64,000 nt of DNA from an uncultured Gammaproteobacteria bacterium (GCA_964636275.1 CAZWRN010000001.1:22070-86069); one strand, 5' to 3'. Shown: positions 3,166-44,738, counted from the first letter of the stretch. The notes: generated by a model not told the origin, from the letters alone. Program-made: numbers and translations.

Positions 3166-3320
3166 TGTCGGTAAATTCTAAGCACTAAATCCTAAACTCG
3201 AGATAAATCTAATACATAAATTCTAAATACAAAACTATTTTTGAAATTGTTATTTTGATATTTGAATTTGTCTAGAATTTAGGATTTCGATATTAGAGTT
3301 TATTATGTTACTCTTATTAC

Positions 3321-13371: not shown

Positions 13372-13814
13372 ACTAGTACCTAGCTTCGGAGCAAATAGAA
13401 GAAAGTTCTCTTTGACCCGAAGATATTGCCGCCCTTAAAAAAGGACTCGGGAACCAGGCAGTCCGGCTTGAAAAGAGCTTTTAGTTTTCAGCTTCGAGCT
13501 TCTAGTGGTTTTTACTAAAAGCTGAAAGCTGATCGCTGGAAGCTTTCTCTTACGGTTGCGGTACAGCTGCAGAGTCTCACTGCATTCCCCTGGATTAGGT
13601 TGGTCTGATCCAACCCGTTCCCTCAAGAATATGGATTACCAACTTAGTACTTTTAGTAGACTGAGTCAATACTTGTTTTGAAGTGGATACAGATTAATGG
13701 TTTTGGAAGCCGGTATGGTAGTTGGATGTATGTTTTAGGTTGACCTACTACTAAAACATTTAACCATACTGGCTTCTACACCTTACAACTTATGACAAAC
13801 GCTTGATTCACTTT

Positions 13815-13969: not shown

Positions 13970-15193
13970 ATGGAACCTGTCTTTCAAGCCCATCCTATAC
14001 CGCAAAATGTGACCAACTTTGAATTTCATTTGGTGGGAGATATGACCATCAAGCAGTTTGGGTATCTGGCTTTGGGACTAGTAATCGCTTTTGTGACGTT
14101 TATCGGACTTGCTTCTTCTTTTCCCTTTATAGCCTATCCTATTATAGTTATTTCAGCAGCAACTGGGGCGGCTTTTGCTTTTATTCCGATTCAAGAAAGG
14201 CCTTTAGATCATTGGGTAGGTGCATTTTTTAAGGCGATCTTTCATCCCACCAAACTGACCTATCAGTCAAAAATTTTAAAAAAAGAGGATCCTTTTTTTT
14301 CGAGAAGATTGTCGCTTTATATCCAAAACAAACACCGAAATCAGGCAGCTAAGTCACTTAGCACCCTGGCTTTAAAGCCAGTGAGCCAAAACCCTTCCGC
14401 CCCACCTTCGAATATGCCTTTATCAAGCACCAGAAAGCCTTCAATGGCTGATCGTCTTTTGTCCGGAGTTCAAACTACAGCTCAGGCACAGCCTGCTTCC
14501 CAGCCTGCAGCGCCTGTTTCACTGGGGACAGTTCCGGCAAGCCCGGTGGTAAAAGAACCACCCAAGCCAACAGATCTGAAGAAAACGGTTGACCTAGCAA
14601 AAGACGCCCAAGAAACTCAGAGTAAAATTTTAAAAATAGAAAAGCAGCTGGAACAGATCAAAGCAACCGTTGCTCAACCAGGAATTGATGCCAAAATATA
14701 TATCGATCAGTTTCAATCGCTGCTGGGAGATTTGCAAAAACTAAATGAACACGCTTCTGGTACCGCCCATGATTTGGCGATCCTGGCCAACTCCCCTGCT
14801 GCTGCAGCCCCCTCAGCTACACCGCCAGCCACAAATACTAGCGAGCCTAAGCCTCAAGTAAGTCCTCAACCAGCTCCCCCAAAAACAGTTCCTTCGGTCA
14901 CTTTGACAACGTTTCCCAATGTAGTAAATGGAGTCGTGACTGACAGCCAGGGCAACTATGTTGAAGGAGCTATTGTGGTTGCACATGACAAACAAGGATT
15001 ACCAGTCCGGGCTTTGCGAAGCAACAAACTGGGACAGTTTGTTGCAGCTACCCCCTTATCCAATGGTATCTATACTATTGTGGTTGAAAAAGACTCGATG
15101 GTCTTTGACAAAGTAGCAGTTGAACTAAAAAATGAAATCCTCCCTCCAATTTTGGTAGCCGCCCGTAAACAACTGCCCGGAGGTACAGCCTAA
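13970..15193 (+). CDS. PrgI/VirB3-like two-TM N-terminal domain fused to a Pro/Ala-rich linker and a C-terminal carboxypeptidase-regulatory-like beta-sandwich
   Basis: N-terminus NVTNFEFHLVGDMTIKQFGYLALGLV plus two TM helices then ERPLDHW, typical of PrgI-family proteins that precede VirB4; the C-terminus VTDSQGNYVEGAIVVAHD...GIYTIVVEKD resembles the CarboxypepD_reg fold. Confidence 0.5.
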   Translation: MEPVFQAHPIPQNVTNFEFHLVGDMTIKQFGYLALGLVIAFVTFIGLASSFPFIAYPIIVISAATGAAFAFIPIQERPLDHWVGAFFKAIFHPTKLTYQSKILKKEDPFFSRRLSLYIQNKHRNQAAKSLSTLALKPVSQNPSAPPSNMPLSSTRKPSMADRLLSGVQTTAQAQPASQPAAPVSLGTVPASPVVKEPPKPTDLKKTVDLAKDAQETQSKILKIEKQLEQIKATVAQPGIDAKIYIDQFQSLLGDLQKLNEHASGTAHDLAILANSPAAAAPSATPPATNTSEPKPQVSPQPAPPKTVPSVTLTTFPNVVNGVVTDSQGNYVEGAIVVAHDKQGLPVRALRSNKLGQFVAATPLSNGIYTIVVEKDSMVFDKVAVELKNEILPPILVAARKQLPGGTA

Positions 15194-15997
15194 ATGAGTG
15201 CAACGCAAGATTTTTTACCAGTAGAAGACATCCGCGATGATGTAGTGGTGATGAAAGATGGCTCAATGGCGATCGTACTACAAACATCAGCCGTCAATTT
15301 TGATCTACTTTCTGAAACAGAGCAGTTAGCAATTATTGGATCATTTGCAGCTCTTTTAAATTCCCTCTCTTTTTCAATCCAAATAGTAATCCGCTCAAAA
15401 AGACTCGACATATCCAACTACATTCATCTGCTGAAGGATGCCGAGGCTTTGCAAAAAAATCCGCTATTACAAGCGATGATGCAACATTACCGGCAATTTG
15501 TCACCAATATTATTCGAAATAACGAGGTGCTGGATAAACAGTTTTTTGTGGTCATATCAGTTTCTTATTTAGAACTTGGGGTGGTGAAAGATGTGAATAA
15601 AAACTTTGAGAAAGGATTAACCCTACTCTCTCCCAGACGGGATCATATCATGCGTCAGTTGGGGAGGATTGGTCTTAAAACAACCCAGCTGAATACTGAT
15701 AAACTGATAGCGCTTTTTTATGACTATTACAACGATACTTTTAAATCCAGTTTCAAATCAGCTGGGGCTTCATCAAAAACAACGGCTCCATCGCCAACAC
15801 CACCTGCAGTTGCCCCCCAGCCAGTCAAACCGTCCCAGACACCAACAATCACGCAAATGGCGCCAGCTCCCCAGCCCGCACCAGTACAACCAGTATCTCA
15901 GCCAATAACCAATCCGGCTCCACAGACACAGCCTAAACCAGCGGGAGTCCCTCTCAATCGCAATGTGCCATTTGCTGTGGAGGAGTTGGGAGCCTAA
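15194..15997 (+). CDS. VirB4/TrbE N-terminal domain as a separate ORF with a Pro-rich tail (split VirB4 or pseudogene fragment)
   Basis: LPVEDIRDDVVVMKDGSMAIVLQTSAVNFDLLSETEQLAIIGSFAALLNSL parallels the VirB4 N-terminus (LPY..HL.D.IVLLEDGSI..I.RV.GV.FEL.E..E...); the tail is APSPTPPAVAPQP...; the start is 1 nt after the upstream stop. Confidence 0.5.
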   Translation: MSATQDFLPVEDIRDDVVVMKDGSMAIVLQTSAVNFDLLSETEQLAIIGSFAALLNSLSFSIQIVIRSKRLDISNYIHLLKDAEALQKNPLLQAMMQHYRQFVTNIIRNNEVLDKQFFVVISVSYLELGVVKDVNKNFEKGLTLLSPRRDHIMRQLGRIGLKTTQLNTDKLIALFYDYYNDTFKSSFKSAGASSKTTAPSPTPPAVAPQPVKPSQTPTITQMAPAPQPAPVQPVSQPITNPAPQTQPKPAGVPLNRNVPFAVEELGA

Positions 15998-16086
15998 AGA
16001 ATAAACCAATAAACAAATAACCCAATGTCAAATTCCCAATTATTGAGAATTTGTTTATTTGAATATTGGATTATTTGTATATTTAT
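15998..16086. repeat. CCAAT-rich imperfect palindromic element (copy A), between the VirB4 N-terminal ORF and the VirB4 ATPase ORF
   Basis: aataaaCCAATaaacaaataaCCCAATgtcaaattCCCAATtattgagaatttgtttatttgaatATTGGattatttgtatattt; related copies at 24414-24470, 24581-24629 and 25086-25165. Confidence 0.7.
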
Positions 16087-16089
16087 AGT

Positions 16090-17880
16090 ATGAACTTACC
16101 TTTTAGCAGTAATAAAAAAAGTTATGCGTCAAATATTAAAGGGACTGCGGCTGAAGCACCGAAAGATCCTAGTGTGAATGGACAAACTTTTAGTTTAGAT
16201 GACGCCATTGCTCCCAAAGAGATCGAAATTGATTTTAGTTATCTACGAATGGATGACAAATACTACCGATCTTTTTTCGTCTCAGGTTATCCCCGCTATG
16301 TTGAACCAAACTGGCTTGAGCCGCTGATTAGTTTTGAACACTCACTAACTCTATCGATGTTTATTTATCCATCATCCAGTAAGAATATTTTGGATGATCT
16401 GAAAAGAAAGATCGCCGAGATGGAGGCTACTATTCAGACAGATATGGAGCGTGGCCGAGCAATAGATCCGGCTGTTCAGGTTGCTTTGGATGATGCTAAA
16501 TCACTCCAAGAACAGTTGGTTAAAGGGGCCGAAAGGTTTTTCCGGCTAGGACTTTATGTCACAGTCCCCTCTTCCAATCTTGAAGAGTTAAACAATATTT
16601 CCAAACTTGTTGAATCAACATTGGGATCTTTATCTATTCAACCTCGGGTGATGACCCTTCAGATGGCTGAAGCTTTTAACGCCACAATGCCGATCGATCG
16701 GGATATTTTAAAGCTCAATCACAACATGGACACAACATCCCTAGCGACAACTTTCCCGTTTACAACTTCAGAGCTGACTTCAGAAACGGGTATTATTTAT
16801 GGCATCAATGAACACAATGGCTCTTTGATTATTTTTGACCGTTTTTCATTGGAAAATGCTAATTCGGTGATTTTTGCTAAGTCCGGATCTGGTAAGTCCT
16901 ACTTTGTCAAACTCGAGGCTTTACGCTATATGATGTTTGGTTCGCAGGTGATTGTGATTGATCCTGAACATGAATATTTAAAGCTCTGTCAGGCTGTGGG
17001 AGGGCAATATATAGATTTTTCATCAGAGTCTCCGGTCAAGATAAATCCCTTTGATCTATCCAATGTCACAGAAGAGGGAGAAAATGAGCTGGGAAGAAAG
17101 ATTCTGACACTTACCGGATTTTTAAAACTCGTCTTGGGCCAGTTGGACGCTTCTCAGCAGGCAATTTTAGACCGGGCTTTGATTACAACGTATCGCCTCA
17201 AAGGAATAACCCAGGACCCAAAAACACAACATTTACCGCCACCATTAATGGAAGATCTCTATAAAGTACTGGTGGGTATGGAAGACAAAAGTGCCCAGGA
17301 GCTGGCTTATCGCCTAGAACGATTTATTAAAGGATCATTAGCTGGTATTTTTAGTGCTCCCTCTAATATTAACTTGAACAATCAGCTGATTGTTTTTTCG
17401 GTTCGTGATTTGGCAGATCAGTTGAGGCCTCTGGCGATGTATCTGATATTGGATTATATCTGGACCAAGATCAGACGAGAGATCTCCAAAAGATTGCTGA
17501 TCGTAGATGAGGCCTGGTACATGATGCAAAATGAGGATTCAGCTGAATTTTTGGTAGGTATAGCCAAAAGAGCCCGCAAATATTATTTAGGAGTTACTAC
17601 AATTACCCAGGATGTGGAAGACTTTTTAGGAACAGATCGTGGAAAGGCGATTATATCCAACTCTTCGATTCAGATATTACTTAAACAAGCTCCGGCCTCT
17701 ATTGGAAAAGTAGCTGAAACTTTTAATTTATCTGATGGGGAAAAATTGTTGTTGCTCTCAGCTGGAGTAGGACAAGGACTCTTCTTTGCCGGACAAACCC
17801 ATGTCGCGATGAGTGTAGTTGCTTCTCCAGAAGAACATCGACTGATCACCACCAATCCGTCTGAAGTGTTTAAGAAATAA
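16090..17880 (+). CDS. Type IV secretion ATPase, VirB4/TrbE/CagE family
   Basis: Walker A VIFAKSGSGKSYFVK, Walker B LLIVDEAWYMM, upstream GYPRYVEPNWLEPLI signature of the CagE_TrbE_VirB domain; start chosen at MNLPF (16090) because the track start lies inside the repeat element. Confidence 0.8.
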   Translation: MNLPFSSNKKSYASNIKGTAAEAPKDPSVNGQTFSLDDAIAPKEIEIDFSYLRMDDKYYRSFFVSGYPRYVEPNWLEPLISFEHSLTLSMFIYPSSSKNILDDLKRKIAEMEATIQTDMERGRAIDPAVQVALDDAKSLQEQLVKGAERFFRLGLYVTVPSSNLEELNNISKLVESTLGSLSIQPRVMTLQMAEAFNATMPIDRDILKLNHNMDTTSLATTFPFTTSELTSETGIIYGINEHNGSLIIFDRFSLENANSVIFAKSGSGKSYFVKLEALRYMMFGSQVIVIDPEHEYLKLCQAVGGQYIDFSSESPVKINPFDLSNVTEEGENELGRKILTLTGFLKLVLGQLDASQQAILDRALITTYRLKGITQDPKTQHLPPPLMEDLYKVLVGMEDKSAQELAYRLERFIKGSLAGIFSAPSNINLNNQLIVFSVRDLADQLRPLAMYLILDYIWTKIRREISKRLLIVDEAWYMMQNEDSAEFLVGIAKRARKYYLGVTTITQDVEDFLGTDRGKAIISNSSIQILLKQAPASIGKVAETFNLSDGEKLLLLSAGVGQGLFFAGQTHVAMSVVASPEEHRLITTNPSEVFKK

Positions 17881-17940
17881 GAAGAGACGATAGATGATCG
17901 AAGATAGGGGTAGAAGGTAGATGATAGCAGGTAGATACTT

Positions 17941-18303
17941 TTAGTAACTTTTCCATTTATCTCTTAAATTTACAATCTTTCCTCCCACTAACTCATATCG
18001 CTTAATTAGTTCGCTACATTTCTCTTGATCTAGATACTTCAAATCTTTTGCTATATTTAAATGTACTTCCATCTCATTACAGGATCCCAATGCTCTATCT
18101 AGTGATACCTTGAATTCTTTCTCAAAGCGTCTTTTCGCCCATCCTTCAGCAATATTTGCAGGAGGAGACTTAGTACATCTTCTCATTTGAGAAGCCAGAT
18201 CATTCTTTTCAAAAGATGGAAGCAATACACACAACTTCATTACTTCGATAGCCAACTCATAACATTCTTTATATACATCTAAATCCTTGAAGCTCTGAAT
18301 CAT
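17941..18303 (-). CDS. Four-helix-bundle protein (23S rRNA intervening-sequence protein family)
   Basis: FKDLDVYKECYELAIEV...LPSFEKNDLASQMRRCTKSPPANIAEGWAKRRFEKEFKVSLDRALGSCNEMEVHLNIA matches the family pattern (DL.VW.kA..L......LP..E...L..Q.rRaa.Si..NIAEG..R...keF..fL.iA.GS..E....L). Confidence 0.65.
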   Translation of the reverse strand: MIQSFKDLDVYKECYELAIEVMKLCVLLPSFEKNDLASQMRRCTKSPPANIAEGWAKRRFEKEFKVSLDRALGSCNEMEVHLNIAKDLKYLDQEKCSELIKRYELVGGKIVNLRDKWKSY

Positions 18304-18421
18304 ATCTGCGGATTCTATAAGTTCTATTCTCTATTTTCAATCCTCCACCACTATTTTCTATCTTCAATACTCTATTTTCTTTAAGTTGTCTCTCCTCCAT
18401 CTTTTCAGCTAAACTAGAGGC

Positions 18422-20374
18422 ATGGCTGCCCGCGATTCTGCTTCACTGTCTCGCAACGATTATTTGGCACTTTTCTATGCTTTGCAGGAGCTGCGCTCAG
18501 AGCCTAGCCAGCTCAGAATTTTAAAATCTCACATCTCGAGCGGCCGTTTTTACAATCAACCTTTGCCAAATATGATCCGACATATGCAAATACTTTTGCA
18601 GAGTAAGGATCCTAATCGGAAATTTCCGCAAACTCTCCGGAAAGAGGATGTGCCTGAATACTTTGAATCGCTTTTACGCGAGGTTAATAGCCATACTGAA
18701 CATGATTTTTATGGAAATATTGAACGTGGCATCAAGCAAAATATTTGGGAAAATATTCCGAGTCCGATAGCTGCACCAGTTCAAACTCCCCAGATGACAG
18801 ATGTCCCAGCAGCGACTGAATCACCCACGCCATCCGAGCCAGAAGAGGCCGTGCCAGAGCCGGAAAAAAAGTCTGAGCCGATAAAGCGTTTTAAGGCTGG
18901 CGGGACTCATTCTGAACCGATAAAAAAAGATGAGGGGCATAAAGATCAGCCACAGGCAAAAACTACCCCCAAAAAAAATATCTACCAGAGAGTAAAATCT
19001 TTTTTTACAACATCATCAACCCCTCAGCCTTCAACTTCGAGTGCTCCCTCAACAACGGCTACTAATAATACTCGGATTGTTGTGGCTAAAGCCAGACAAA
19101 CAGTTGGACAGGTACTCAGCAATCCGGTAAAAGATCTTGGCAGTCAGATCGTGAGACAGATCATCCGTCATCCTTTACTAAAAAAACGGGTAGTAACTGC
19201 TGGGATAGGGGCGATCGGCGGATATTATTTTGGCGGGGCACCGGGAGCAGGGGTTGGAGCTGTCCTGGGAGGGTTGTTAGGGCCAAATATCTCCACAACC
19301 ATAGGTGATGTTCTGACTGGAGGAAGAAGTAGCTCTTCCCTTTCGACGGGTACTCCAACAGCGCCAGATGATACATCAGGTGACGCACCTTCAGGTGGTG
19401 GGGGAGGGAGTAACTTTTTCCGCAACCGAGCTTTAAATACTGCGCGTAATTTAGCCAATCAGGCGGCTCGACGAGCCATCATTGCCGGTGGGCGAACTTT
19501 TTTAGCCGCCAACGCCTGGTGGATTATTTTGGTGATAGTTGTGGGGATTTTGCTACTGGTGGCGCTGTTGTTGATGCTCTGCATTCTCCCCTGGTCCGGC
19601 TGCAGTACCGGTGGATTAAATGGTGATGTAAAAAAGAATTTTTCTATTCAAAAATCAGCCCCTCAGGCTGTTGATAATGGATCTCCAATTGAATATAAAA
19701 TTGAAGTTATTAATAAAGGAAATCAAAATGCCTCAGTCACCGTTGTAGATAATCTCCCTGATGGAACTATTTATCAAACTGGAAATAACGATCCGGCTAC
19801 TGACCAAAATACTTCAAAAAAAATTCAATGGACAATTAATGACCTAGGTCCTGGACAGAAGAAAGATCTGACTTTCACCGTAGTTCCTCAAATCCCTGAT
19901 ACATGGATAGTTAATCAGACATCTGCAAATATTAAGTTGCTTGGAAATTCAAGTAGCGGTAATGTCAATATTCCGGGAAATATCCCCCCTACCGCAAACA
20001 ATTGCAATGGTACCTATCCTCTTAAAAATCCATTAGGTAACTTTGGTGATCCAAAGTGTGATTTTAATAAAGATGCCCTATACCAAATACTTCAGCAATT
20101 GGATCCTACAAACGCTACCTACTGGTTTACTAAAGTTGCTCGATGTGAAAGTAACTATTCTCCGAATGCCTATGCAGATCCAATTGCTGTAGGAACACCC
20201 GATCCTATAGGGGCCTGGGGGCTTTTCCAAATGGGACGGGGTAAGAATGGCGAATTTGACCATGGAGATGTTATCTGGCAACTTCAAACAAGTAATGCAG
20301 TGAATTATAACAACAATATTTCTAAGCTTGGGTTAGCCTGGCGATATTGGCAGTGCGCCAATGACAGATGGTAA
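18422..20374 (+). CDS. Membrane-anchored cell-wall hydrolase: N-terminal cytoplasmic region, Gly-zipper/TM, DUF11-like repeat domain, C-terminal Rpf/SLT-like transglycosylase (VirB1-like role)
   Basis: GIGAIGGYYFGGAPGAGVGAVLGGLLG then TM WWIILVIVVGILLLVALLLML; IEYKIEVINKGNQNASVTVVDNLPDG (DUF11-like); VARCESNYSPNAYADPIAVGTPDPIGAWGLFQM (the CES...GLFQ transglycosylase-like motif). Confidence 0.6.
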   Translation: MAARDSASLSRNDYLALFYALQELRSEPSQLRILKSHISSGRFYNQPLPNMIRHMQILLQSKDPNRKFPQTLRKEDVPEYFESLLREVNSHTEHDFYGNIERGIKQNIWENIPSPIAAPVQTPQMTDVPAATESPTPSEPEEAVPEPEKKSEPIKRFKAGGTHSEPIKKDEGHKDQPQAKTTPKKNIYQRVKSFFTTSSTPQPSTSSAPSTTATNNTRIVVAKARQTVGQVLSNPVKDLGSQIVRQIIRHPLLKKRVVTAGIGAIGGYYFGGAPGAGVGAVLGGLLGPNISTTIGDVLTGGRSSSSLSTGTPTAPDDTSGDAPSGGGGGSNFFRNRALNTARNLANQAARRAIIAGGRTFLAANAWWIILVIVVGILLLVALLLMLCILPWSGCSTGGLNGDVKKNFSIQKSAPQAVDNGSPIEYKIEVINKGNQNASVTVVDNLPDGTIYQTGNNDPATDQNTSKKIQWTINDLGPGQKKDLTFTVVPQIPDTWIVNQTSANIKLLGNSSSGNVNIPGNIPPTANNCNGTYPLKNPLGNFGDPKCDFNKDALYQILQQLDPTNATYWFTKVARCESNYSPNAYADPIAVGTPDPIGAWGLFQMGRGKNGEFDHGDVIWQLQTSNAVNYNNNISKLGLAWRYWQCANDRW

Positions 20375-23296: not shown

Positions 23297-24409
23297 CTAA
23301 CTTAAGCGGATTGGCATAATCACATATTCCAGTCCTTCGATGCCTTCTGGTTTGATTAAAGCCGCAGAGAGATTTCCGGAAAATTCAATCCTGACTTTTT
23401 CGGAATTTACTGAAGACAAAGCATCTGTCAGGTATTTAGCATTAAAGGCGATCTGGATCGGGTTTTGCCCCGTCTGAGCCTCTATTTCAGTCTCTTGCTC
23501 CCCTACTTCTCTGGCCTGAGAAGAGATTTTTATTTTTCCTTCCAAAGTCTCCATTTTGATAACATTCGCTTCTGTTTTAGCAAAAACCGATGCCAACTTG
23601 ACGGCTTTTAATAAATCTGTTCGATCGATATGGGTGATATTTTGAAATTCAGTCGGAACTATTTTTTCCCAGGATGGAAAATTACCCTCAATCAGCCGAG
23701 AAGAAGCCTGTGTATCCCCTACTTTAAAAATAATCTGGTTGTCACTGGTTCCAATCTCAACCAGTCCTGATTCCGACTTTTCAATATCTTCGCTAATCAG
23801 CCTGACAACTTCTTCTAGGGTTCTTCTGGGTATCAGAGATCTAAATGGTTGATCAGTTTCACTCTCGAGGCTCATTTTTTTGTGAGCCAGCCGAAAACCA
23901 TCAGTTGCAACCAACTCTAAGGTATGTTTGGTAATCTCGGTTAATATTCCAGTTAAAACAGGTCTGCCGTCATCAGCTGCAGCAGCAAAGGCGATCTGAG
24001 GGACAGAATCTTTTAGTACCGCAGCTTGAACAGAGGCGGCTTTTTCTCCGGCCAATGGTATAGCTGGAAACTCGGCAGACGAGATACCATTTAAAGTGAC
24101 ATTAAAGTTTTTAGCTGAAATTCGAAGTTGTTCGCCGCCGGATTCGAGAGTTAGTTCTAAGCCACTTAAAGACGAGATGATCTCTTGAAATGTTTTAGCT
24201 GGTACTGTTAGATCCCCTTCTTCTTCCACGCTTGCATTAATCGATTTAACAACACCAATTTCCAGATTGGTAGCAGATAAAACTAATTTATTTCCCTGAG
24301 CCTGTAACAGGATATTGGCCAAAACAGGTAAAGTGGTACGAATTCCGACTGATCTTGAAACAGCTTGTAGTGGACCATTTAAATCTGATTGTTGAATTTT
24401 TAATCGCAT
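23297..24409 (-). CDS. dnaN: DNA polymerase III beta subunit (sliding clamp)
   Basis: MRLKIQQSDLNGPLQAVSRSVGIRTTLPVLANILLQAQGNKLVLSATNLEIG and full-length clamp; start set at the internal Met (24409) since the track extension runs into the repeat element. Confidence 0.93.
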   Translation of the reverse strand: MRLKIQQSDLNGPLQAVSRSVGIRTTLPVLANILLQAQGNKLVLSATNLEIGVVKSINASVEEEGDLTVPAKTFQEIISSLSGLELTLESGGEQLRISAKNFNVTLNGISSAEFPAIPLAGEKAASVQAAVLKDSVPQIAFAAAADDGRPVLTGILTEITKHTLELVATDGFRLAHKKMSLESETDQPFRSLIPRRTLEEVVRLISEDIEKSESGLVEIGTSDNQIIFKVGDTQASSRLIEGNFPSWEKIVPTEFQNITHIDRTDLLKAVKLASVFAKTEANVIKMETLEGKIKISSQAREVGEQETEIEAQTGQNPIQIAFNAKYLTDALSSVNSEKVRIEFSGNLSAALIKPEGIEGLEYVIMPIRLS

Positions 24410-24413
24410 AATG

Positions 24414-24470
24414 GAATAAACCAATAACCCAATAGACAAATAAACCAATTCTTGAATTAAGAATTCGCTG
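24414..24470. repeat. CCAAT-rich element, copy C (left arm), abutting the dnaN start
   Basis: aataaaccaataacccaatagacaaataaaccaattcttgaattaagaattcg. Confidence 0.6.
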
Positions 24471-24580
24471 TTTTTGGATAATTGTTTAAAGTGTTTTTTG
24501 GTAATTTTTCAACCGCTTTAAGAACTTCAACAACGAATTCAAAAATTCTTTCATATATATCGTGTTTATATTCATTATTC

Positions 24581-24629
24581 GCCATTTGTTTATTGGGTTA
24601 TTTGTATATTTGTTTATTCAGTAAATGGC
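24581..24629. repeat. CCAAT-rich element, copy D (right arm, ATTGG orientation)
   Basis: gccatttgtttattgggttatttgtatatttgtttattcagtaaatggc, closely matching the right arm of copy A. Confidence 0.6.
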
Positions 24630-24633
24630 AGAT

Positions 24634-25113
24634 TTACTTAAGACCTTTAACAACTCTTTCAACTTCGTCTTCGGTGACCTTAATCAAGCGAAAATAAACT
24701 CGCTGATGCTCTATGAGGGTTTTAATATGTTTTTCCTCTGGTGTCAAGGCAGCACTTGTTCCCGACTTCACTTCGATGAAATCAATTCTTTCCCCATTTT
24801 TGACTCCAACAAAATCAATTGGCCATCCTAAAGGAATAATTCGGTCATAATCATAACGAAGTTCAGCATACGTTAAAAGTTCAGCCATCTTGCCCTTTTG
24901 TGGATTGATCGATCCCTGAATGGTCTGAAGTACCCTAACTGGCAGATTATTTACCTGTTGATAAAGGTCAATAAAATCCTGTGGGATATCTGTACGTGGT
25001 TTGGCTTGGAGTCTGCCAATTAAATAAGCGATGATTAATCCTAAAATAATAAACCCGATAGTAACCCAGTTAAATTCCATGATTAAGAATAATCCAATAA
25101 CCCGATAAACCAA
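24634..25113 (-). CDS. Membrane-anchored PD-(D/E)xK nuclease, Hjc-like (archaeal-type Holliday junction resolvase fold)
   Basis: N-terminal TM WVTIGFIILGLIIAYLIG; the core AEL...PIDFVGVKNGERIDFIEVKSG parallels Hjc AERE...KVDLVAGNGKKYLCIEVK (Glu, Asp, E-V-K catalytic triad). Confidence 0.55.
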   Translation of the reverse strand: MVYRVIGLFLIMEFNWVTIGFIILGLIIAYLIGRLQAKPRTDIPQDFIDLYQQVNNLPVRVLQTIQGSINPQKGKMAELLTYAELRYDYDRIIPLGWPIDFVGVKNGERIDFIEVKSGTSAALTPEEKHIKTLIEHQRVYFRLIKVTEDEVERVVKGLK

Positions 25114-25165
25114 TGCCCAATTTCCAATTATTGGAGTCTGGTTTATTTGGAGATTTGTTTATTAG
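25086..25165. repeat. CCAAT-rich palindromic element, copy B
   Basis: aataatCCAATaacccgataaaCCAATgcccaatttCCAATtattggagtctggtttatttggagatttgtttatt, alignable with copy A over about 80 bp. Confidence 0.7.
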
Positions 25166-25169
25166 GCTA

Positions 25170-25382
25170 TTATACAGTATTGAGTTATCCCGAGAGTTAT
25201 CAACAAGGCTGGTGAATATAAACTTTATTATTTATATACAGTAATGGTATTTATAGGGGGTGTGAATAAGTATATAACTTAGTATTTTAGCTTCACTTTT
25301 CGGATAATTTTGGTGTTGAAAAGCGGTGGATAATTGTGGATAACTTGGTGGATAAGTTGGGGATAAATTGTTGATAAGTAGT
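25170..25382. promoter_or_regulatory. oriC: oriC core: DnaA-box cluster plus an AT-rich unwinding-element candidate
   Basis: TTATCCCGA (25186-25194) and TTATCAACA (25198-25206) on the plus strand; AT-rich stretch 25207-25300; then on the minus strand TTATCCACC (25325-25333), perfect TTATCCACA (25335-25343), TTATCCACC (25347-25355) and weaker GGGGATAAA / TTGATAAG. Confidence 0.75.
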
Positions 25383-26729
25383 TCATCCGGCTAAATTTTG
25401 CTTTATTTCCATTACAACTCTTTGGATTTCTCTGTCTCTTGAGATAGCTGACTTGATCTTATCCACACCGTGCATAACTGTTGTATGGTCTCTACCACCC
25501 AAAACCTGGCCAATTTTTTCAAAAGGCATATTACATTCAGTTTGCATCAGGTACATGGCTATTTGGCGAGGCATGACGAGCTCTTTTTGTCTTCTGGGGC
25601 CGGTAATATCTGCCATTTTGAGATTGAAATAATCGTTTACTGTCGACAACAGTTTTTTATGGTCAACCTTCTGGTTTTGATTTAGCTGTGGTCCCCCCAA
25701 GTATCTTGAAACAAATTCAATAGTCGGTTCTTGATTCATCAGCTTACTAGTTTCTAATATTTGTATCAGCTTTCCTTCTAGTTCCCGAGTGTTGGATTGA
25801 ATTGATTCAGCAATTAAGGTTAGGCTTTCTTCAGGTAGTGTTTGTCCTTTCTCTACTAGCTTAGCTTTTAAGATGGCTACTCTGGTTTCAAAATCAGGGA
25901 GTTGGAGATCGACCATAAGACCACCTTGAAATCGAGATCTTAAACGGTCTTCGAGTTTGGTTAGTTCATTTGGTGGACGATCAGATGTAAGGACTATTTG
26001 GGCGTTTTTGGTGTGAAGTTCATTAAAAGTATGGAAAAATTCTTCCTGGAATGAATCTTTGCCGGCGATAAATTGAATATCGTCAACTAAAAGACAGTCA
26101 CAGTCTCGATATTTTTGACGAAAAGCGGTTGTACCTTTTCTTTGAATTGATTCAACGAAATCGTTTAAAAATCTTTCTGATGAGACAAACACCAGTTTGG
26201 CTCGAGGGTTTTTTTCTAATATAGCGTTGCCAATGGCATGCATGAGATGGGTCTTCCCTACTCCAGATGGTCCATACATAAAGAATGGATTATATGATTG
26301 GCCTGGATTTTGAATAATTGCTTGGGCTGCAGCGAAAGCTAAATTGTTGGTCGGTCCGACAACAAAATTTTGAATAGTGTATTTTTTATTCAAGGCGGTA
26401 GTTGGTTTTGGTGCCCCAGGCATTTCTATAGTAAAGAGGTCGTCATCTTCTTCTGTTTGGATGATATTTTTTTTATTGTCTAAAGACGGGTCGATAGTGT
26501 AGGAGATTGTCAGCGTGTCGCCTATGACAGCCTGGATTGATTCGTTGAGTACCGGGCCATAACGCAATAATTGTTGCCCTTTGACAAAAGCTGACGGAAC
26601 GGCTAAAACGATCTCGTTGTTTTCGATCTTGCGAGCTTCGGTTTTACCAAACCAGGTTCTAAAATTGTGGGCATCCAGTTTTTGTTTGAGCTGAGCTTGG
26701 ATTTTTTGCCAGGTTGCTTGAGGGTCCAT
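25383..26729 (-). CDS. dnaA: Chromosomal replication initiator DnaA
   Basis: Walker A GPSGVGKTHLMHAIGN, Walker B LLVDDIQFIAGK, C-terminal DNA-binding MPRQIAMYLMQTECNMPFEKIGQVLGGRDHTTVMHGVDKI; ATG at 26729 (MDPQATWQKIQ...) preferred over the GTG-extended track start. Confidence 0.95.
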   Translation of the reverse strand: MDPQATWQKIQAQLKQKLDAHNFRTWFGKTEARKIENNEIVLAVPSAFVKGQQLLRYGPVLNESIQAVIGDTLTISYTIDPSLDNKKNIIQTEEDDDLFTIEMPGAPKPTTALNKKYTIQNFVVGPTNNLAFAAAQAIIQNPGQSYNPFFMYGPSGVGKTHLMHAIGNAILEKNPRAKLVFVSSERFLNDFVESIQRKGTTAFRQKYRDCDCLLVDDIQFIAGKDSFQEEFFHTFNELHTKNAQIVLTSDRPPNELTKLEDRLRSRFQGGLMVDLQLPDFETRVAILKAKLVEKGQTLPEESLTLIAESIQSNTRELEGKLIQILETSKLMNQEPTIEFVSRYLGGPQLNQNQKVDHKKLLSTVNDYFNLKMADITGPRRQKELVMPRQIAMYLMQTECNMPFEKIGQVLGGRDHTTVMHGVDKIKSAISRDREIQRVVMEIKQNLAG

Positions 26730-26741
26730 GAGGCCAATACT

Positions 26742-26760
26742 AGTGGATAAGTTGTCCACA
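26742..26760. promoter_or_regulatory. Two DnaA boxes immediately upstream of the dnaA start (autoregulatory candidate)
   Basis: agTGGATAAgTTGTCCACA: TTATCCACT (26742-26750) and TTGTCCACA (26752-26760). Confidence 0.6.
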
Positions 26761-26949
26761 GAAAAGGGAGAGAAACTAGCAAGAAGTGTATCAGTAGATA
26801 ATTTACAATTTTCAATTTACAACTTACAGTTTTCAAATAAATTTAAATTCTTAGAATTTGTAAATTGTAATTTGATTACTAAATTGACAAATAGAAATTG
26901 AAAATTCTTCACTCTTGGTTTTTAGCTTCAACTAGGTTATAATGTACGC

Positions 26950-35531: not shown

Positions 35532-35894
35532 AAATTTCTAATTACTCTAATTTCTAATTTCTAATTTCTAAACAATATTAAAAACTTTAATTTTTTAGAA
35601 ATTACTAATTAGTAATTAGAACTTACCTTCTACTTATCCACCGGACTCTGTAAAGTATAAATTACAAAGTATAAAGTATAAAACTCTGAAATTGAAGCTA
35701 ATTGATATGGTGGGGTTCTTCTCTTTTCGGTTATCCTCCGGACTCTTTTGCACGTATAGGTCTAGTAAGTGGATTAGTTGATTGGTTAATCCGTTAATCA
35801 GGATTTTTTGCTTTTCCGATGAACTAGTTCACTGTTTAACCAATTACTTTCTTATGGTTGAATTCGTGAGGCTAAACGTGATATAGTACTCCCC

Positions 35895-44603: not shown

Positions 44604-44738
44604 GGCTGATATTGTAACAAATTTAGAAGATAGATGGTGGAGGGTAGAAGATCGGATTCGATAGTAGAATATAGAGATTAGCTTCTATTTTCCATCTTCC
44701 ATATTCTACCACCATCTTCAATCCTCTATAATAGATGT

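What the first reader, a model, noticed from the sequence alone, without database searches (positions are those of the whole stretch)
15194..17880. VirB4 appears split: an N-terminal-domain ORF with a Pro-rich tail, then a 90-bp palindromic element, then the ATPase ORF in another frame
ORF 15194-15997 matches the extreme N-terminus of VirB4/TrbE (LP..D.R.D.VV.KDGS.A.V..TS.VNF.L.SE.E...). It then degenerates into APSPTPPAVAPQP low complexity. The CCAAT-rich palindrome occupies 15998-16086. The ATPase ORF restarts at 16090 in a different frame, with the GYPRYVEPNWL signature and Walker motifs. This could be a natural two-gene VirB4, an element insertion that pseudogenised the ATPase, or a site of programmed recoding.
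Basis: partly seen in the sequence, partly recalled or inferred. Interest (0 to 1): 0.65.

Follow-up and report, generated by a model that had tools for sequence, protein, structure and literature searches.

The report
Natural two-gene VirB4 (TrsD plus ATPase)
The "split VirB4" is real but ordinary: in this Patescibacteria (Daviesbacteria-like) chromosome the secretion ATPase is normally encoded as two conserved genes, a TrsD-like N-domain protein and the ATPase, and the palindrome between them is one of many hairpin repeats in the genome.

Summary
ORF1 (15194-15997) is a VirB4 N-terminal domain followed by a Pro-rich tail. Next comes a 92-nt AT-rich imperfect palindrome. ORF2 (16090-17880) is the rest of VirB4, in another frame.

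The two ORFs tile a fused 787-aa relative almost exactly: ORF1 residues 2-199 match its 8-215, and ORF2 residues 40-596 match its 213-770.

The split is neither damage nor recoding.
- In all 88 analysable related loci, a TrsD-like ORF is directly followed by a separate ATPase ORF. None is fused, and the median gap is -4 nt.
- Both ORFs are under very strong purifying selection.
- The spacer carries stop codons in all three frames.

The arrangement is the known TrsD/TrsE layout of staphylococcal plasmid pSK41, with the same breakpoint. It was described across Patescibacteria in 2025 (PMC12102498).

The palindrome is lineage-specific and did not cause the split. It is absent in a relative 76% identical in the N-domain. 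Copies with the same arm motif lie at two other loci in the window. Differently sequenced hairpins fill the same junction in 13 of 80 species representatives.

Two small additions:
- a conserved C-terminal PFVVEEL peptide sits at the end of the TrsD tail;
- the hairpin replaces the translational coupling seen in most relatives.

Verdict: already known, low interest.

The parts
13970..15193 (+). PrgI/VirB3-like membrane protein gene. Its stop codon abuts the ORF1 start (TAAATG). It is the first gene of the conserved prgI-trsD-virB4 triplet.
   Evidence: Pfam PF12666 PrgI, E 5.9e-10, above cutoff. The same gene lies upstream in relatives.
15194..15748 (+). ORF1 residues 1-185: the folded VirB4 N-terminal domain, encoded as a stand-alone TrsD-like (Pfam 'TraC-like') protein.
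   Evidence: NCBIfam hits to TrsD and to the N-terminal positions of VirB4 profiles. Precomputed Pfam PF26593 TraC-like. 45% identity to residues 8-215 of fused VirB4 P0187, E 4e-52. In the AF2 model residues 1-185 are confident. The top 14 PDB fold matches are all entries of the R388 T4SS inner-membrane complex and TrwK/VirB4, each with probability 1.00.
15749..15964 (+). ORF1 residues 186-257: a Pro/Gln/Ala-rich linker predicted to be disordered. Its length is hypervariable among homologs; whole proteins range from about 205 to 715 aa.
   Evidence: pLDDT 49-68 with no secondary structure. Homolog lengths and tails are shown.
15965..15997 (+). ORF1 residues 258-267, VPFAVEELGA, plus the stop codon: a conserved C-terminal peptide motif (consensus PFVVEEL[PDDYG]).
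   Evidence: A motif match lies within the last 25 residues in 141 of 267 collected homologs. It is aligned and present in most Daviesbacteria-level loci.
15998..16089 (+). 92-nt AT-rich (22% GC) spacer holding an imperfect hairpin (paired region about 16008-16083) built from 8-nt units (AATAAACC/AATAAACA/AATAACCC) and their complements. It belongs to a repeated palindromic element family.
   Evidence: Inverted repeats. Fold z = -4.1. The same arm motif recurs at 24415-24449(+), 24584-24618(-) and 25088-25163: 14 motif matches against 0.46 expected. No Rfam family matches. There are stop codons in all three frames.
16078..16083 (+). TATATT hexamer ending 7 nt before the ORF2 ATG: a possible -10 box for a leaderless virB4 transcript. 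This is inferred and weak.
   Evidence: TA[ACT]A[AT]T hexamers end at -7 or -8 in 8 of 45 genes of the window, ORF2 included. Only 9 of 47 genes have an SD-like motif, and ORF2 has none. By my reading of the spacers, the hexamer is not conserved in this register in L005, L011 or L012.
16090..17880 (+). ORF2 (596 aa): the VirB4-family ATPase without its N-terminal domain. Landmarks: GYPRYVEPNWL at 16285-16317, Walker A AKSGSGKS at 16876-16899, Walker B LLIVDEAW at 17494-17517.
   Evidence: NCBIfam conju_CD1110, 391 bits (cutoff 325), residues 32-574 matching profile positions 183-734. Pfam P-loop_TraG, AAA_10 and DUF87. 64% identity to P0187 residues 213-770. 25% identity to pSK41 TrsE, E 8e-47.
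17941..18303 (-). Context only: a PF05635 (23S rRNA IVS protein) gene inserted between virB4 and the next T4SS-cluster gene, inside a long inverted repeat. It is not part of the split VirB4.
   Evidence: Pfam E 5e-27. The site is empty in the relative L005, which is 89% identical in the N-domain.

Best explanation
This is the normal chromosomal type IV secretion locus of a Patescibacteria (CPR) bacterium of the Daviesbacteria/Microgenomates kind, about 8 kb from dnaN/dnaA/oriC. Here VirB4 is encoded as two separate, functional genes.

**The two proteins.** ORF1 is a TrsD-like protein. It carries the VirB4 N-terminal domain, then a disordered Pro-rich linker, then a conserved C-terminal PFVVEEL-type peptide. 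ORF2 is the remainder of VirB4, the middle domain plus the RecA-type ATPase domain. The gene order prgI(virB3)-trsD-virB4 and the position of the break match trsC-trsD-trsE of staphylococcal plasmid pSK41.

**Inferred mechanism.** The TrsD-like protein supplies in trans what the N-domain does in single-chain VirB4. In the R388 structures that domain contacts VirB3 and the membrane complex and mediates VirB4 dimer contacts. TrsD would therefore link the PrgI/VirB3 membrane anchor to the ATPase hexamer. Its tethered C-terminal peptide is a candidate docking motif for the ATPase or another partner.

**The junction.** In most relatives the two genes overlap by 4 nt or lie a few nt apart, which suggests translational coupling. 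In this lineage a hairpin-forming repeated palindromic element sits in the junction. It resembles REP or IVS elements, and its arm motif recurs at two other loci in the window. It did not create the split. It most likely just separates the two cistrons. ORF2 would then start on its own, with no Shine-Dalgarno motif and possibly from a leaderless-type -10 box. The hairpin may also affect mRNA processing or stability.

**Shown versus inferred.** Shown: the tiling, the conservation of the split, purifying selection, the fold, and the repeat nature and lineage-specificity of the hairpin. Inferred: assembly in trans, the role of the C-terminal peptide, and any regulatory role of the hairpin.
For: **Tiling.**
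- ORF1 5-193 matches CD1110 profile positions 2-181, and ORF2 32-574 matches positions 183-734.
- ORF1 2-199 matches P0187 8-215, and ORF2 40-596 matches P0187 213-770. P0187 is a real fused 787-aa VirB4 found on 3 contigs directly after prgI.

**Fold.** In the AF2 model residues 1-185 are confident. The 14 best PDB matches are all entries of the R388 T4SS inner-membrane complex and TrwK/VirB4.

**Conservation of the split.**
- The 120 closest ORF1 homologs are all 215-331 aa stand-alone proteins.
- Across 80 species-representative genomes plus metagenome contigs, 88 loci could be analysed. In every one the ATPase ORF directly follows the TrsD-like ORF, and none is fused. Of the 85 gaps that could be measured, the median is -4 nt and 64 are 25 nt or less.
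- prgI-trsD-virB4 synteny holds.

**Selection.** Against L005, L011 and L012, pN is 0.01-0.06 and pS is 0.68-0.85. Second codon positions are 97-100% identical and third positions 48-56%.

**Known precedent.**
- In pSK41, trsD (227 aa) is followed by trsE (672 aa) after a 14-nt gap. TrsE residue 30 aligns to CD1110 position 183, the same breakpoint.
- PMC12102498 reports 2,272 TrsD homologues in Patescibacteria, 1,664 of them next to virB4. It describes TrsD as remotely homologous to the VirB4 N-terminus and as essential in S. epibionticum, and it places the T4SS near dnaA.
- dnaA, dnaN and a DnaA-box cluster are in the window.

**Hairpin.**
- It is absent in L004 (17-nt gap) and in L007 and L009 (overlapping genes).
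- The arm motif recurs at 24415-24618 and 25088-25163.
- Of the 15 distinct spacers longer than 60 nt, 12 fold clearly better than shuffled controls (z of -2.7 or lower). Their sequences are unrelated to one another.
- The consensus scans find no promoter on the + strand and no terminator in the spacer.
Against: - No expression or protein data exist for this organism. Physical interaction of the two products is inferred from homology with single-chain VirB4.
- ORF1 scores far below the curated cutoff of the NCBIfam TrsD model (38 against 200 bits). It is therefore a distant relative of plasmid TrsD, and the shared breakpoint could reflect convergence at a domain boundary rather than common descent.
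- The AF2 model gives no information on where the C-terminal peptide binds.
- The four closest hairpin spacers cannot be aligned, so structure-conserving covariation could not be shown.
- The -10-like hexamer is expected by chance at roughly 3% in such AT-rich sequence (my own rough estimate). By my reading it is not conserved in register in relatives.
Confidence: 0.9

Rival explanations
1. Insertion of a mobile palindromic element broke a formerly single virB4 gene. ORF1 and/or ORF2 would then be decaying pseudogene fragments.
For: A repeated palindromic element does sit exactly at the junction. A fused VirB4 exists in one related lineage (P0187).
Against: The split exists without any element in relatives, with gaps of -23 to +17 nt. 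None of the 88 analysable related loci is fused. Both ORFs are intact, with pN/pS well below 0.1 at saturating synonymous divergence. The Pro-rich tail ends in a conserved C-terminal motif. Long spacers also occur at the prgI-trsD junction in 9 of 78 loci, so this is ordinary intergenic occupancy.
Confidence: 0.02
2. Programmed recoding (frameshift, readthrough or ribosomal bypass over the hairpin) joins ORF1 and ORF2 into one VirB4 polypeptide.
For: There is a frame change plus a stable hairpin directly after the ORF1 stop, which superficially resembles a bypassing or frameshift stimulator.
Against: The spacer has stop codons in all three frames, and the ORF2 frame is closed until 65 nt after the ORF1 stop. 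The 72-aa tail with its conserved terminal motif ends at a conserved stop. Most relatives have plain overlapping stop/start junctions with a conserved ATG. The frame relation between the ORFs varies among relatives (0, +1 or +2).
Confidence: 0.01
3. The hairpin is a selected regulatory device for this operon rather than a passive repeat. It could be an RNase III processing site or an mRNA-stabilising stem that sets the TrsD:VirB4 ratio, and/or it could carry a promoter that makes virB4 a leaderless transcript. This concerns the spacer only and is compatible with the main explanation.
For: A hairpin of 92-114 nt is kept at this junction in four relatives whose synonymous sites are saturated (window, L011, L005, L012), although the arm sequences differ. 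Long-stem elements of the same style flank a PF05635 gene of the kind found in RNase III-cleaved rRNA intervening sequences (PMC11270868). A TATATT hexamer ends at -7 from the ATG, in the same register as -10-like boxes of seven other genes.
Against: The same kinds of hairpin occur in divergent intergenic regions too, for example 26793-26880 upstream of dnaA and 44645-44728. They also occur at the prgI-trsD junction in other genomes, which fits selfish or neutral spread. No covariation could be shown. 64 of the 85 measured junctions lack any long spacer.
Confidence: 0.25
4. ORF1 is an independent T4SS accessory protein that merely shares ancestry with the VirB4 N-domain. It would no longer act as the ATPase's N-domain, having taken on another role such as binding a different partner through its tail.
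For: [quoted passage not shown] The hypervariable tails reach about 500 aa. The paper reports that about a quarter of Patescibacteria TrsD homologues are not adjacent to virB4.
Against: Adjacency is strict in all 88 analysable loci of this clade. ORF2 lacks an N-domain of its own. The N-domain is highly conserved, with second codon positions 100% identical to L011, and it keeps the VirB4 N-domain fold.
Confidence: 0.07

Closest known systems
TrsD + TrsE of Staphylococcus plasmids pSK41/pGO1. The TraD + TraE pair of pIP501 is named with it in the NCBIfam family title 'TrsD/TraD'.
   Same: Gene order is VirB3-like, then a stand-alone N-domain protein of about 200 aa, then a VirB4 ATPase lacking that domain. 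The breakpoint is the same: TrsE residue 30 and ORF2 residue 32 both align to CD1110 profile position 183. ORF1's best NCBIfam hit is TrsD, and BLASTP against TrsD gives E 2e-6.
   Different: Homology is distant: 23% identity, and 38 bits against the 200-bit family cutoff. The window locus is chromosomal, near oriC, with no relaxase seen nearby, whereas pSK41 is a conjugative plasmid. ORF1 carries a Pro-rich linker plus a PFVVEEL C-terminal motif. pSK41 TrsD is only 227 aa, and its alignment with ORF1 runs almost to its C-terminus, leaving no room for such a tail. The window has a 92-nt hairpin spacer where pSK41 has a 14-nt gap.
Patescibacteria chromosomal T4SS with TrsD next to VirB4 (Quinonero-Coronel et al. 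2025, PMC12102498)
   Same: The same lineage-wide arrangement: a TrsD homologue adjacent to virB4, PrgI/VirB3 present, a location close to dnaA/dnaN, and no VirB3-VirB4 fusion. The window is one instance of it.
   Different: The passages retrieved from the paper call TrsD remotely homologous to the VirB4 N-terminus and of unknown function. In those passages it does not describe residue-level tiling, the conserved C-terminal peptide, or the hairpin elements in the junction. Only targeted passages were read, not the whole paper.
Single-chain VirB4/TrwK/TraC ATPases (R388 TrwK; Firmicutes CD1110 family; fused Patescibacteria P0187)
   Same: ORF1 and ORF2 together contain all VirB4 regions in the same order. 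The ORF1 fold matches entries of the R388 TrwK/VirB4 complex. Identity to fused P0187 is 45% for ORF1 and 64% for ORF2.
   Different: Two polypeptides replace one. ORF1 adds a 72-aa tail and ORF2 adds an N-terminal extension of about 39 aa that have no counterpart in the fused protein.
Repetitive extragenic palindromes (REP/BIME) and RNase III-cleaved rRNA intervening sequences (IVS)
   Same: Short imperfect palindromes are repeated in intergenic DNA, including inside operons. Related stems in this window enclose a PF05635 '23S rRNA IVS protein' gene or its remnant.
   Different: There is no sequence relation to enterobacterial REP. The arms are built of degenerate 7-8-nt tandem units and differ between genomes. 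No RNase III cleavage or transposase association has been shown. No Rfam family matches.

Membership tests
VirB4/TrbE/CagE-family T4SS ATPase (applied to ORF2) | Scores above the curated cutoff of a VirB4-type family model | tested here: met
   NCBIfam NF045971 conju_CD1110: 391.1 bits against a cutoff of 325, E 9.7e-117.
VirB4/TrbE/CagE-family T4SS ATPase (applied to ORF2) | P-loop NTPase domain with Walker A and Walker B motifs | tested here: met
   Pfam P-loop_TraG E 4.7e-33 and AAA_10 E 4.8e-12. AKSGSGKS and LLIVDEAW are read in the sequence.
VirB4/TrbE/CagE-family T4SS ATPase (applied to ORF2) | N-terminal VirB4 domain on the same polypeptide | tested here: not met
   The ORF2 match starts at profile position 183 of 752. 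The domain is encoded by ORF1 instead.
VirB4/TrbE/CagE-family T4SS ATPase (applied to ORF2) | Genomic association with other T4SS genes (VirB3-like and others) | tested here: met
   PrgI lies at 13970-15193, and synteny is conserved in relatives. VirD4 and a relaxase were not identified among the window ORFs scanned; that scan was not exhaustive.
TrsD/TraD family (NCBIfam NF041427), applied to ORF1 | Scores above the curated family cutoff | tested here: not met
   38.2 bits against a cutoff of 200 (E 1.3e-9), although this is ORF1's best NCBIfam hit. ORF1 is a distant homologue, not a member of the plasmid subfamily as NCBI defines it.
TrsD/TraD family (NCBIfam NF041427), applied to ORF1 | Stand-alone protein homologous to the VirB4 N-terminal domain, encoded immediately upstream of a VirB4 ATPase that lacks it | tested here: met
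Pfam PF26593 'TraC-like' domain, applied to ORF1 | A Pfam hit on record for the protein | tested here: inconclusive
   A precomputed PF26593 hit is listed unmarked for the identical protein P0001. The local Pfam scan returned only PF11130 TraC_F_IV, below cutoff (E 2.4e-4).
Programmed ribosomal frameshift or readthrough site | An open path between the two frames with no intervening stop codons, and a conserved recoding signal | tested here: not met
   Stops in all three frames of the spacer. The ORF2 frame is closed until 65 nt after the ORF1 stop. The frame relation varies among relatives.
Repeated intergenic palindromic element (REP/MITE-like), applied to the spacer | Several related copies per genome, palindromic, in intergenic positions | tested here: met
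   14 motif matches against 0.46 expected, clustered at three intergenic loci in the 64-kb window. Alignment of the copies at 16000 and 25088 is. At least 8 long intergenic hairpins are present in the window.
Repeated intergenic palindromic element (REP/MITE-like), applied to the spacer | Evidence of mobility: target-site duplication, a transposase partner, or empty sites | tested here: inconclusive
   The junction carries no hairpin in L004, L007 and L009, and hairpins differ at the same site in close relatives. Target-site duplications and a mobilising enzyme were not identified.

The most novel reading that the evidence does not exclude
The TrsD-like protein may be more than a detached N-domain. 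It could be a tethered adaptor whose conserved C-terminal PFVVEEL peptide, held on a hypervariable Pro-rich leash, docks onto the VirB4 ATPase or another T4SS partner to rebuild the split enzyme.

Separately, Microgenomates genomes may carry an undescribed class of IVS-like hairpin elements. These sometimes carry PF05635 genes and repeatedly land in operon junctions such as trsD-virB4. There they would replace translational coupling with independent, possibly leaderless or RNase III-processed, expression.
Probability: 0.3. Interest if true: 0.4.

Novelty: already known. Interest (0 to 1): 0.2.

Why it matters
It settles an annotation question. Annotation pipelines and readers should not flag this locus as a frameshifted or disrupted virB4. 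In Patescibacteria, as in the staphylococcal plasmid pSK41, VirB4 is normally a two-gene enzyme.

The T4SS was shown to be essential for epibiotic growth in the one Patescibacteria strain studied experimentally. The exact domain boundary, the conserved C-terminal peptide of the TrsD-like protein and the existence of a naturally fused relative give concrete constructs for testing how the N-domain is recruited. Beyond that, the finding adds nothing unexpected.

Tried and rejected
- **Rfam.** A search of the whole window at gathering thresholds and of the spacer at permissive E-values found no family.
- **Solved structures by sequence.** A profile of ORF1 homologs against PDB sequences gave no significant hit. 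Only the fold comparison found VirB4.
- **Covariation in the hairpin.** RNAalifold on the four closest spacers gave only -3.15 kcal/mol for the consensus. The repetitive arms make the alignment unreliable, so this is inconclusive.
- **Motif-based ATPase detection.** My first script used a GYPR motif to find the downstream ATPase and missed many loci. I replaced it with tblastn mapping.
- **Consensus promoter and terminator scans.** They found no + strand promoter and no terminator in the spacer. The tool only covers two-hexamer sigma-70 sites.
- **Junction as a hot spot.** Rejected, because long spacers also occur at prgI-trsD in 9 of 78 loci.
- **The 42-aa remnant ORF at 24460-24585(-).** It has no Pfam hit. 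Only a short BLASTP match links it to the PF05635 protein.
- **Searches not run.** I ran no further search on ORF2. The 80 species-representative loci already answered the fused-or-split question.
Full report
**Observation.**
- ORF1 runs from 15194 to 15997 (267 aa). It has a well-conserved N-terminal part and a Pro/Gln/Ala-rich tail.
- A 92-nt AT-rich spacer follows (15998-16089).
- ORF2 runs from ATG 16090 to 17880 (596 aa) in a different frame. An upstream TTG at 16066 is not the start: alignment with relatives that are 89% identical in the N-domain shows conservation beginning exactly at the ATG.
- ORF2 carries GYPRYVEPNWL, Walker A (AKSGSGKS) and Walker B (LLIVDEAW).
- The spacer holds imperfect inverted repeats: 27-nt arms at 81% complementarity and 19-nt arms at 89%. 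It folds far better than shuffled controls (-19.3 kcal/mol, z = -4.1, 0 of 200 shuffles).

**Do the two ORFs tile one VirB4?** Yes, by two independent tests.
- *Against a profile.* In the NCBIfam VirB4 model conju_CD1110 (752 positions), ORF1 residues 5-193 match positions 2-181 and ORF2 residues 32-574 match positions 183-734. ORF2 alone scores 391 bits, above the 325-bit cutoff.
- *Against a real fused protein.* P0187 (787 aa) lies directly after a prgI gene in both retrieved places; three contigs carry it. ORF1 residues 2-199 align to its 8-215 (45% identity, E 4e-52). ORF2 residues 40-596 align to its 213-770 (64% identity). The two alignments abut at a shared '(T/I)AP' tripeptide.
- *What is extra.* The window has a 72-aa tail on ORF1 and an N-terminal extension of about 39 aa on ORF2 that the fused protein lacks.
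- *Fold.* In the AlphaFold2 model of ORF1, residues 1-185 are confident and the rest is disordered. The 14 best PDB fold matches are all entries of the R388 T4SS inner-membrane complex and TrwK/VirB4, each with probability 1.00. The break therefore lies in a disordered inter-domain linker.

**Is the split damage, recoding or design?** It is design.
- The 120 closest homologs of the ORF1 N-domain are all stand-alone proteins of 215-331 aa, and the named ones are mostly Candidatus Daviesbacteria. An exhaustive profile-free search gave 2,371 relatives. Among the best 150, only P0187 is a complete fused protein, and P0249 looks like a fragment of one.
- I fetched 80 species-representative genome loci and several metagenome contigs and mapped both halves by tblastn. 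In all 88 analysable loci the TrsD-like ORF is directly followed by a separate ATPase ORF, and none is fused.
- A gap could be measured at 85 junctions. The median is -4 nt (ATGA-type overlap) and 64 gaps are 25 nt or less, the usual signature of translational coupling.
- Relatives that are 76%, 70% and 64% identical in the N-domain have a 17-nt gap or overlaps of 14 and 23 nt, with no palindrome. The palindrome therefore did not cause the split.
- Both ORFs are under very strong purifying selection. Against L005, L011 and L012, pN is 0.01-0.06 while pS is 0.68-0.85, which is saturating. Second codon positions are 97-100% identical and third positions only 48-56%.
- The spacer has stop codons in all three frames, and the frame relation between the two ORFs varies among relatives. 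This excludes a conserved recoding route.

**What is already known.**
- ORF1's best NCBIfam hit is TrsD/TraD (E 1.3e-9, far below the subfamily cutoff).
- In Staphylococcus plasmid pSK41 the annotated order is trsC, trsD (227 aa), then a 14-nt gap, then the DUF87 ATPase TrsE (672 aa). TrsE residue 30 aligns to CD1110 position 183, the same breakpoint as ORF2. ORF1 against TrsD gives 23% identity and E 2e-6. ORF2 against TrsE gives 25% identity and E 8e-47.
- Quinonero-Coronel et al. 2025 (PMC12102498) report TrsD as the most abundant T4SS component recovered in Patescibacteria: 2,272 homologues, 1,664 of them next to virB4. They describe it as remotely homologous to the N-terminal portion of VirB4, of unassigned function, and essential in S. 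epibionticum ML1. They also report that the T4SS often lies near dnaA/dnaN.
- The window fits this description. PrgI lies upstream. dnaN, dnaA and five tandem DnaA boxes lie 6-9 kb downstream. Housekeeping genes surround the locus.
- The main finding is thus one instance of a described arrangement.

**Likely mechanism (inference).**
- In single-chain VirB4, the N-domain contacts VirB3 and the inner-membrane complex and mediates VirB4 dimer contacts.
- The TrsD-like protein should do the same in trans, linking PrgI/VirB3 to the ATPase.
- One detail I did not find in the passages of the 2025 paper that I read: the hypervariable Pro-rich tail ends in a conserved peptide. It is PFVVEEL(PDDYG) in relatives and VPFAVEELGA here. 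A motif match lies within the last 25 residues of 141 of 267 collected homologs.
- In short-tailed relatives, a similar 'TP[ILF]VEP...' segment follows the N-domain directly. In the fused forms the equivalent region ('LPVVDVIAPSSVETDF' in P0249, 'VPTIAPQSITVDF' in P0187) leads into the first conserved strand of the ATPase part.
- This suggests a tethered docking peptide. The AF2 model gives it low confidence and no fold-back onto the N-domain, so the partner is unknown.

**The palindrome.**
- Its arms consist of degenerate 8-nt units, AATAAACC/AATAAACA/AATAACCC. The same motif recurs in inverted pairs at 24415-24449/24584-24618 and at 25088-25163, giving 14 matches against 0.46 expected. The copy at 25088 also shares the central sequence TTCCAATTATTG.
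- The window holds at least eight such long AT-rich intergenic hairpins, in co-directional and divergent intergenic regions alike.
- At the trsD-virB4 junction, 13 of the 80 species representatives have spacers of 81-191 nt. These spacers have unrelated sequences. Counting the window's own spacer and L005, 12 of the 15 distinct long spacers fold clearly better than shuffled controls, with z of -2.7 or lower.
- Close relatives (L011, L005, L012) keep a hairpin at this site with different arms. The spacers cannot be aligned reliably, so covariation is unproven.
- Long spacers are also found at prgI-trsD in 9 of 78 loci, so the junction is not a special hot spot.
- Stems of the same style enclose a PF05635 '23S rRNA IVS protein' gene at 17941-18303. 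That gene is absent from the otherwise collinear relative L005, which shows the empty site. The AATAAACCAAT arms at 24415-24618 enclose a 42-aa remnant resembling the N-terminus of that protein.
- rRNA intervening sequences that carry such ORFs are RNase III substrates and occur in CPR rRNA genes (PMC11270868). An IVS-like or REP-like repeated element is therefore the best description.
- No Rfam family matches.

**Consequence for expression (weakly supported).**
- ORF2 cannot be translationally coupled to ORF1 here, and it has no Shine-Dalgarno motif. Such motifs are rare in this genome: 9 of 47 genes have one.
- A TATATT hexamer ends 7 nt before the ATG. This is the register in which TATAAT/TACAAT-like boxes precede seven other genes in the window, which hints at leaderless transcription.
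- By my own rough estimate, chance expectation for such a hexamer in this AT-rich sequence is about 3%. By my reading of the spacers, relatives do not conserve it in register.

**Verdict.** The interpretation 'natural two-gene VirB4' is right, and the pseudogene and recoding readings are rejected. The arrangement is already known, from pSK41 and from Patescibacteria generally. The remaining open points are the C-terminal peptide of the TrsD-like protein and the nature of the hairpin element family. These are modest leads rather than surprises.

Noticed in passing
window 25190-25382 (DnaA boxes at 25325-25377, 25197, 25261): Five tandem DnaA-box matches spaced 10-12 nt apart, plus two more. They lie between dnaA (25383-26759, -) and a Holliday-resolvase-like gene (24634-25091, -), with dnaN at 23297-24410 (-). 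This is probably oriC, about 8 kb from the T4SS genes.
   Followed up: partly
window 17881-18421 (gene 17941-18303, -): A PF05635 (23S rRNA IVS protein) gene lies between virB4 and the next T4SS-cluster gene. It sits inside a long purine-rich/pyrimidine-rich inverted repeat; the joined flanks fold at -50 kcal/mol. The collinear relative L005, 89% identical in the N-domain, has an empty site (L005 6698-6749), so this is a recent cassette insertion.
   Followed up: partly
window 24404-24625: Inverted AATAAACCAAT-type arms, the same family as the trsD-virB4 spacer, enclose a 42-aa ORF (24460-24585, -). Its residues 9-29 resemble the N-terminus of the PF05635 protein (38% identity, E 8e-5). It has no Pfam hit. 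It may be a decayed cassette.
   Followed up: partly
window 3172-3302, 13476-13537, 25088-25165, 26793-26880, 35546-35620, 44645-44728; spacers in L011, L012, L018, L022, L037, L043, L050, L080: Many long AT-rich imperfect intergenic hairpins are built of 7-8-nt tandem units. A few arm types recur across different genomes. For example, window 3172-3208 resembles the L037 spacer, and window 26793-26880 resembles the L005 and L022 spacers. No Rfam family matches in the window; the locus spacers were not searched against Rfam. This may be an undescribed repeat class in Microgenomates.
   Followed up: partly
window, upstream regions of 45-47 genes: Only 9 of 47 genes have a Shine-Dalgarno-like motif. 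TA[ACT]A[AT]T hexamers pile up ending at -7 or -8 from the ATG in 8 of 45 genes. This suggests widespread leaderless transcripts.
   Followed up: partly
window 16090-17880 compared with L011, L005 and L012: The VirB4 ATPase is 94-99.8% identical in protein to relatives whose third codon positions are only 50-56% identical. Purifying selection is therefore unusually strong, which is consistent with the reported essentiality of the Patescibacteria T4SS.
   Followed up: yes
L091 3001-5364, L092 877-3240 (protein P0187): A naturally fused full-length VirB4 (787 aa) exists in a related Patescibacteria lineage, directly after prgI. Three contigs carry it, and the two retrieved places come from separate samples. 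Fused and split forms therefore coexist in the phylum.
   Followed up: partly
window 18422-20374 (+): The 650-aa protein downstream has a DUF11/CLIPPER repeat region and a C-terminal segment with a weak SLT lytic-transglycosylase match (E 0.06; motif ...CESNYSPNAY...GLFQMG). It may be the VirB1-like cell-wall hydrolase of the system. It is conserved downstream of virB4 in relatives.
   Followed up: partly
P0247, P0238 and other homologs: Some TrsD-like proteins carry low-complexity Q/N/P/S-rich tails of 400-500 aa after the N-domain, with no Pfam domain. The function of this extreme tail expansion is unknown.
   Followed up: no
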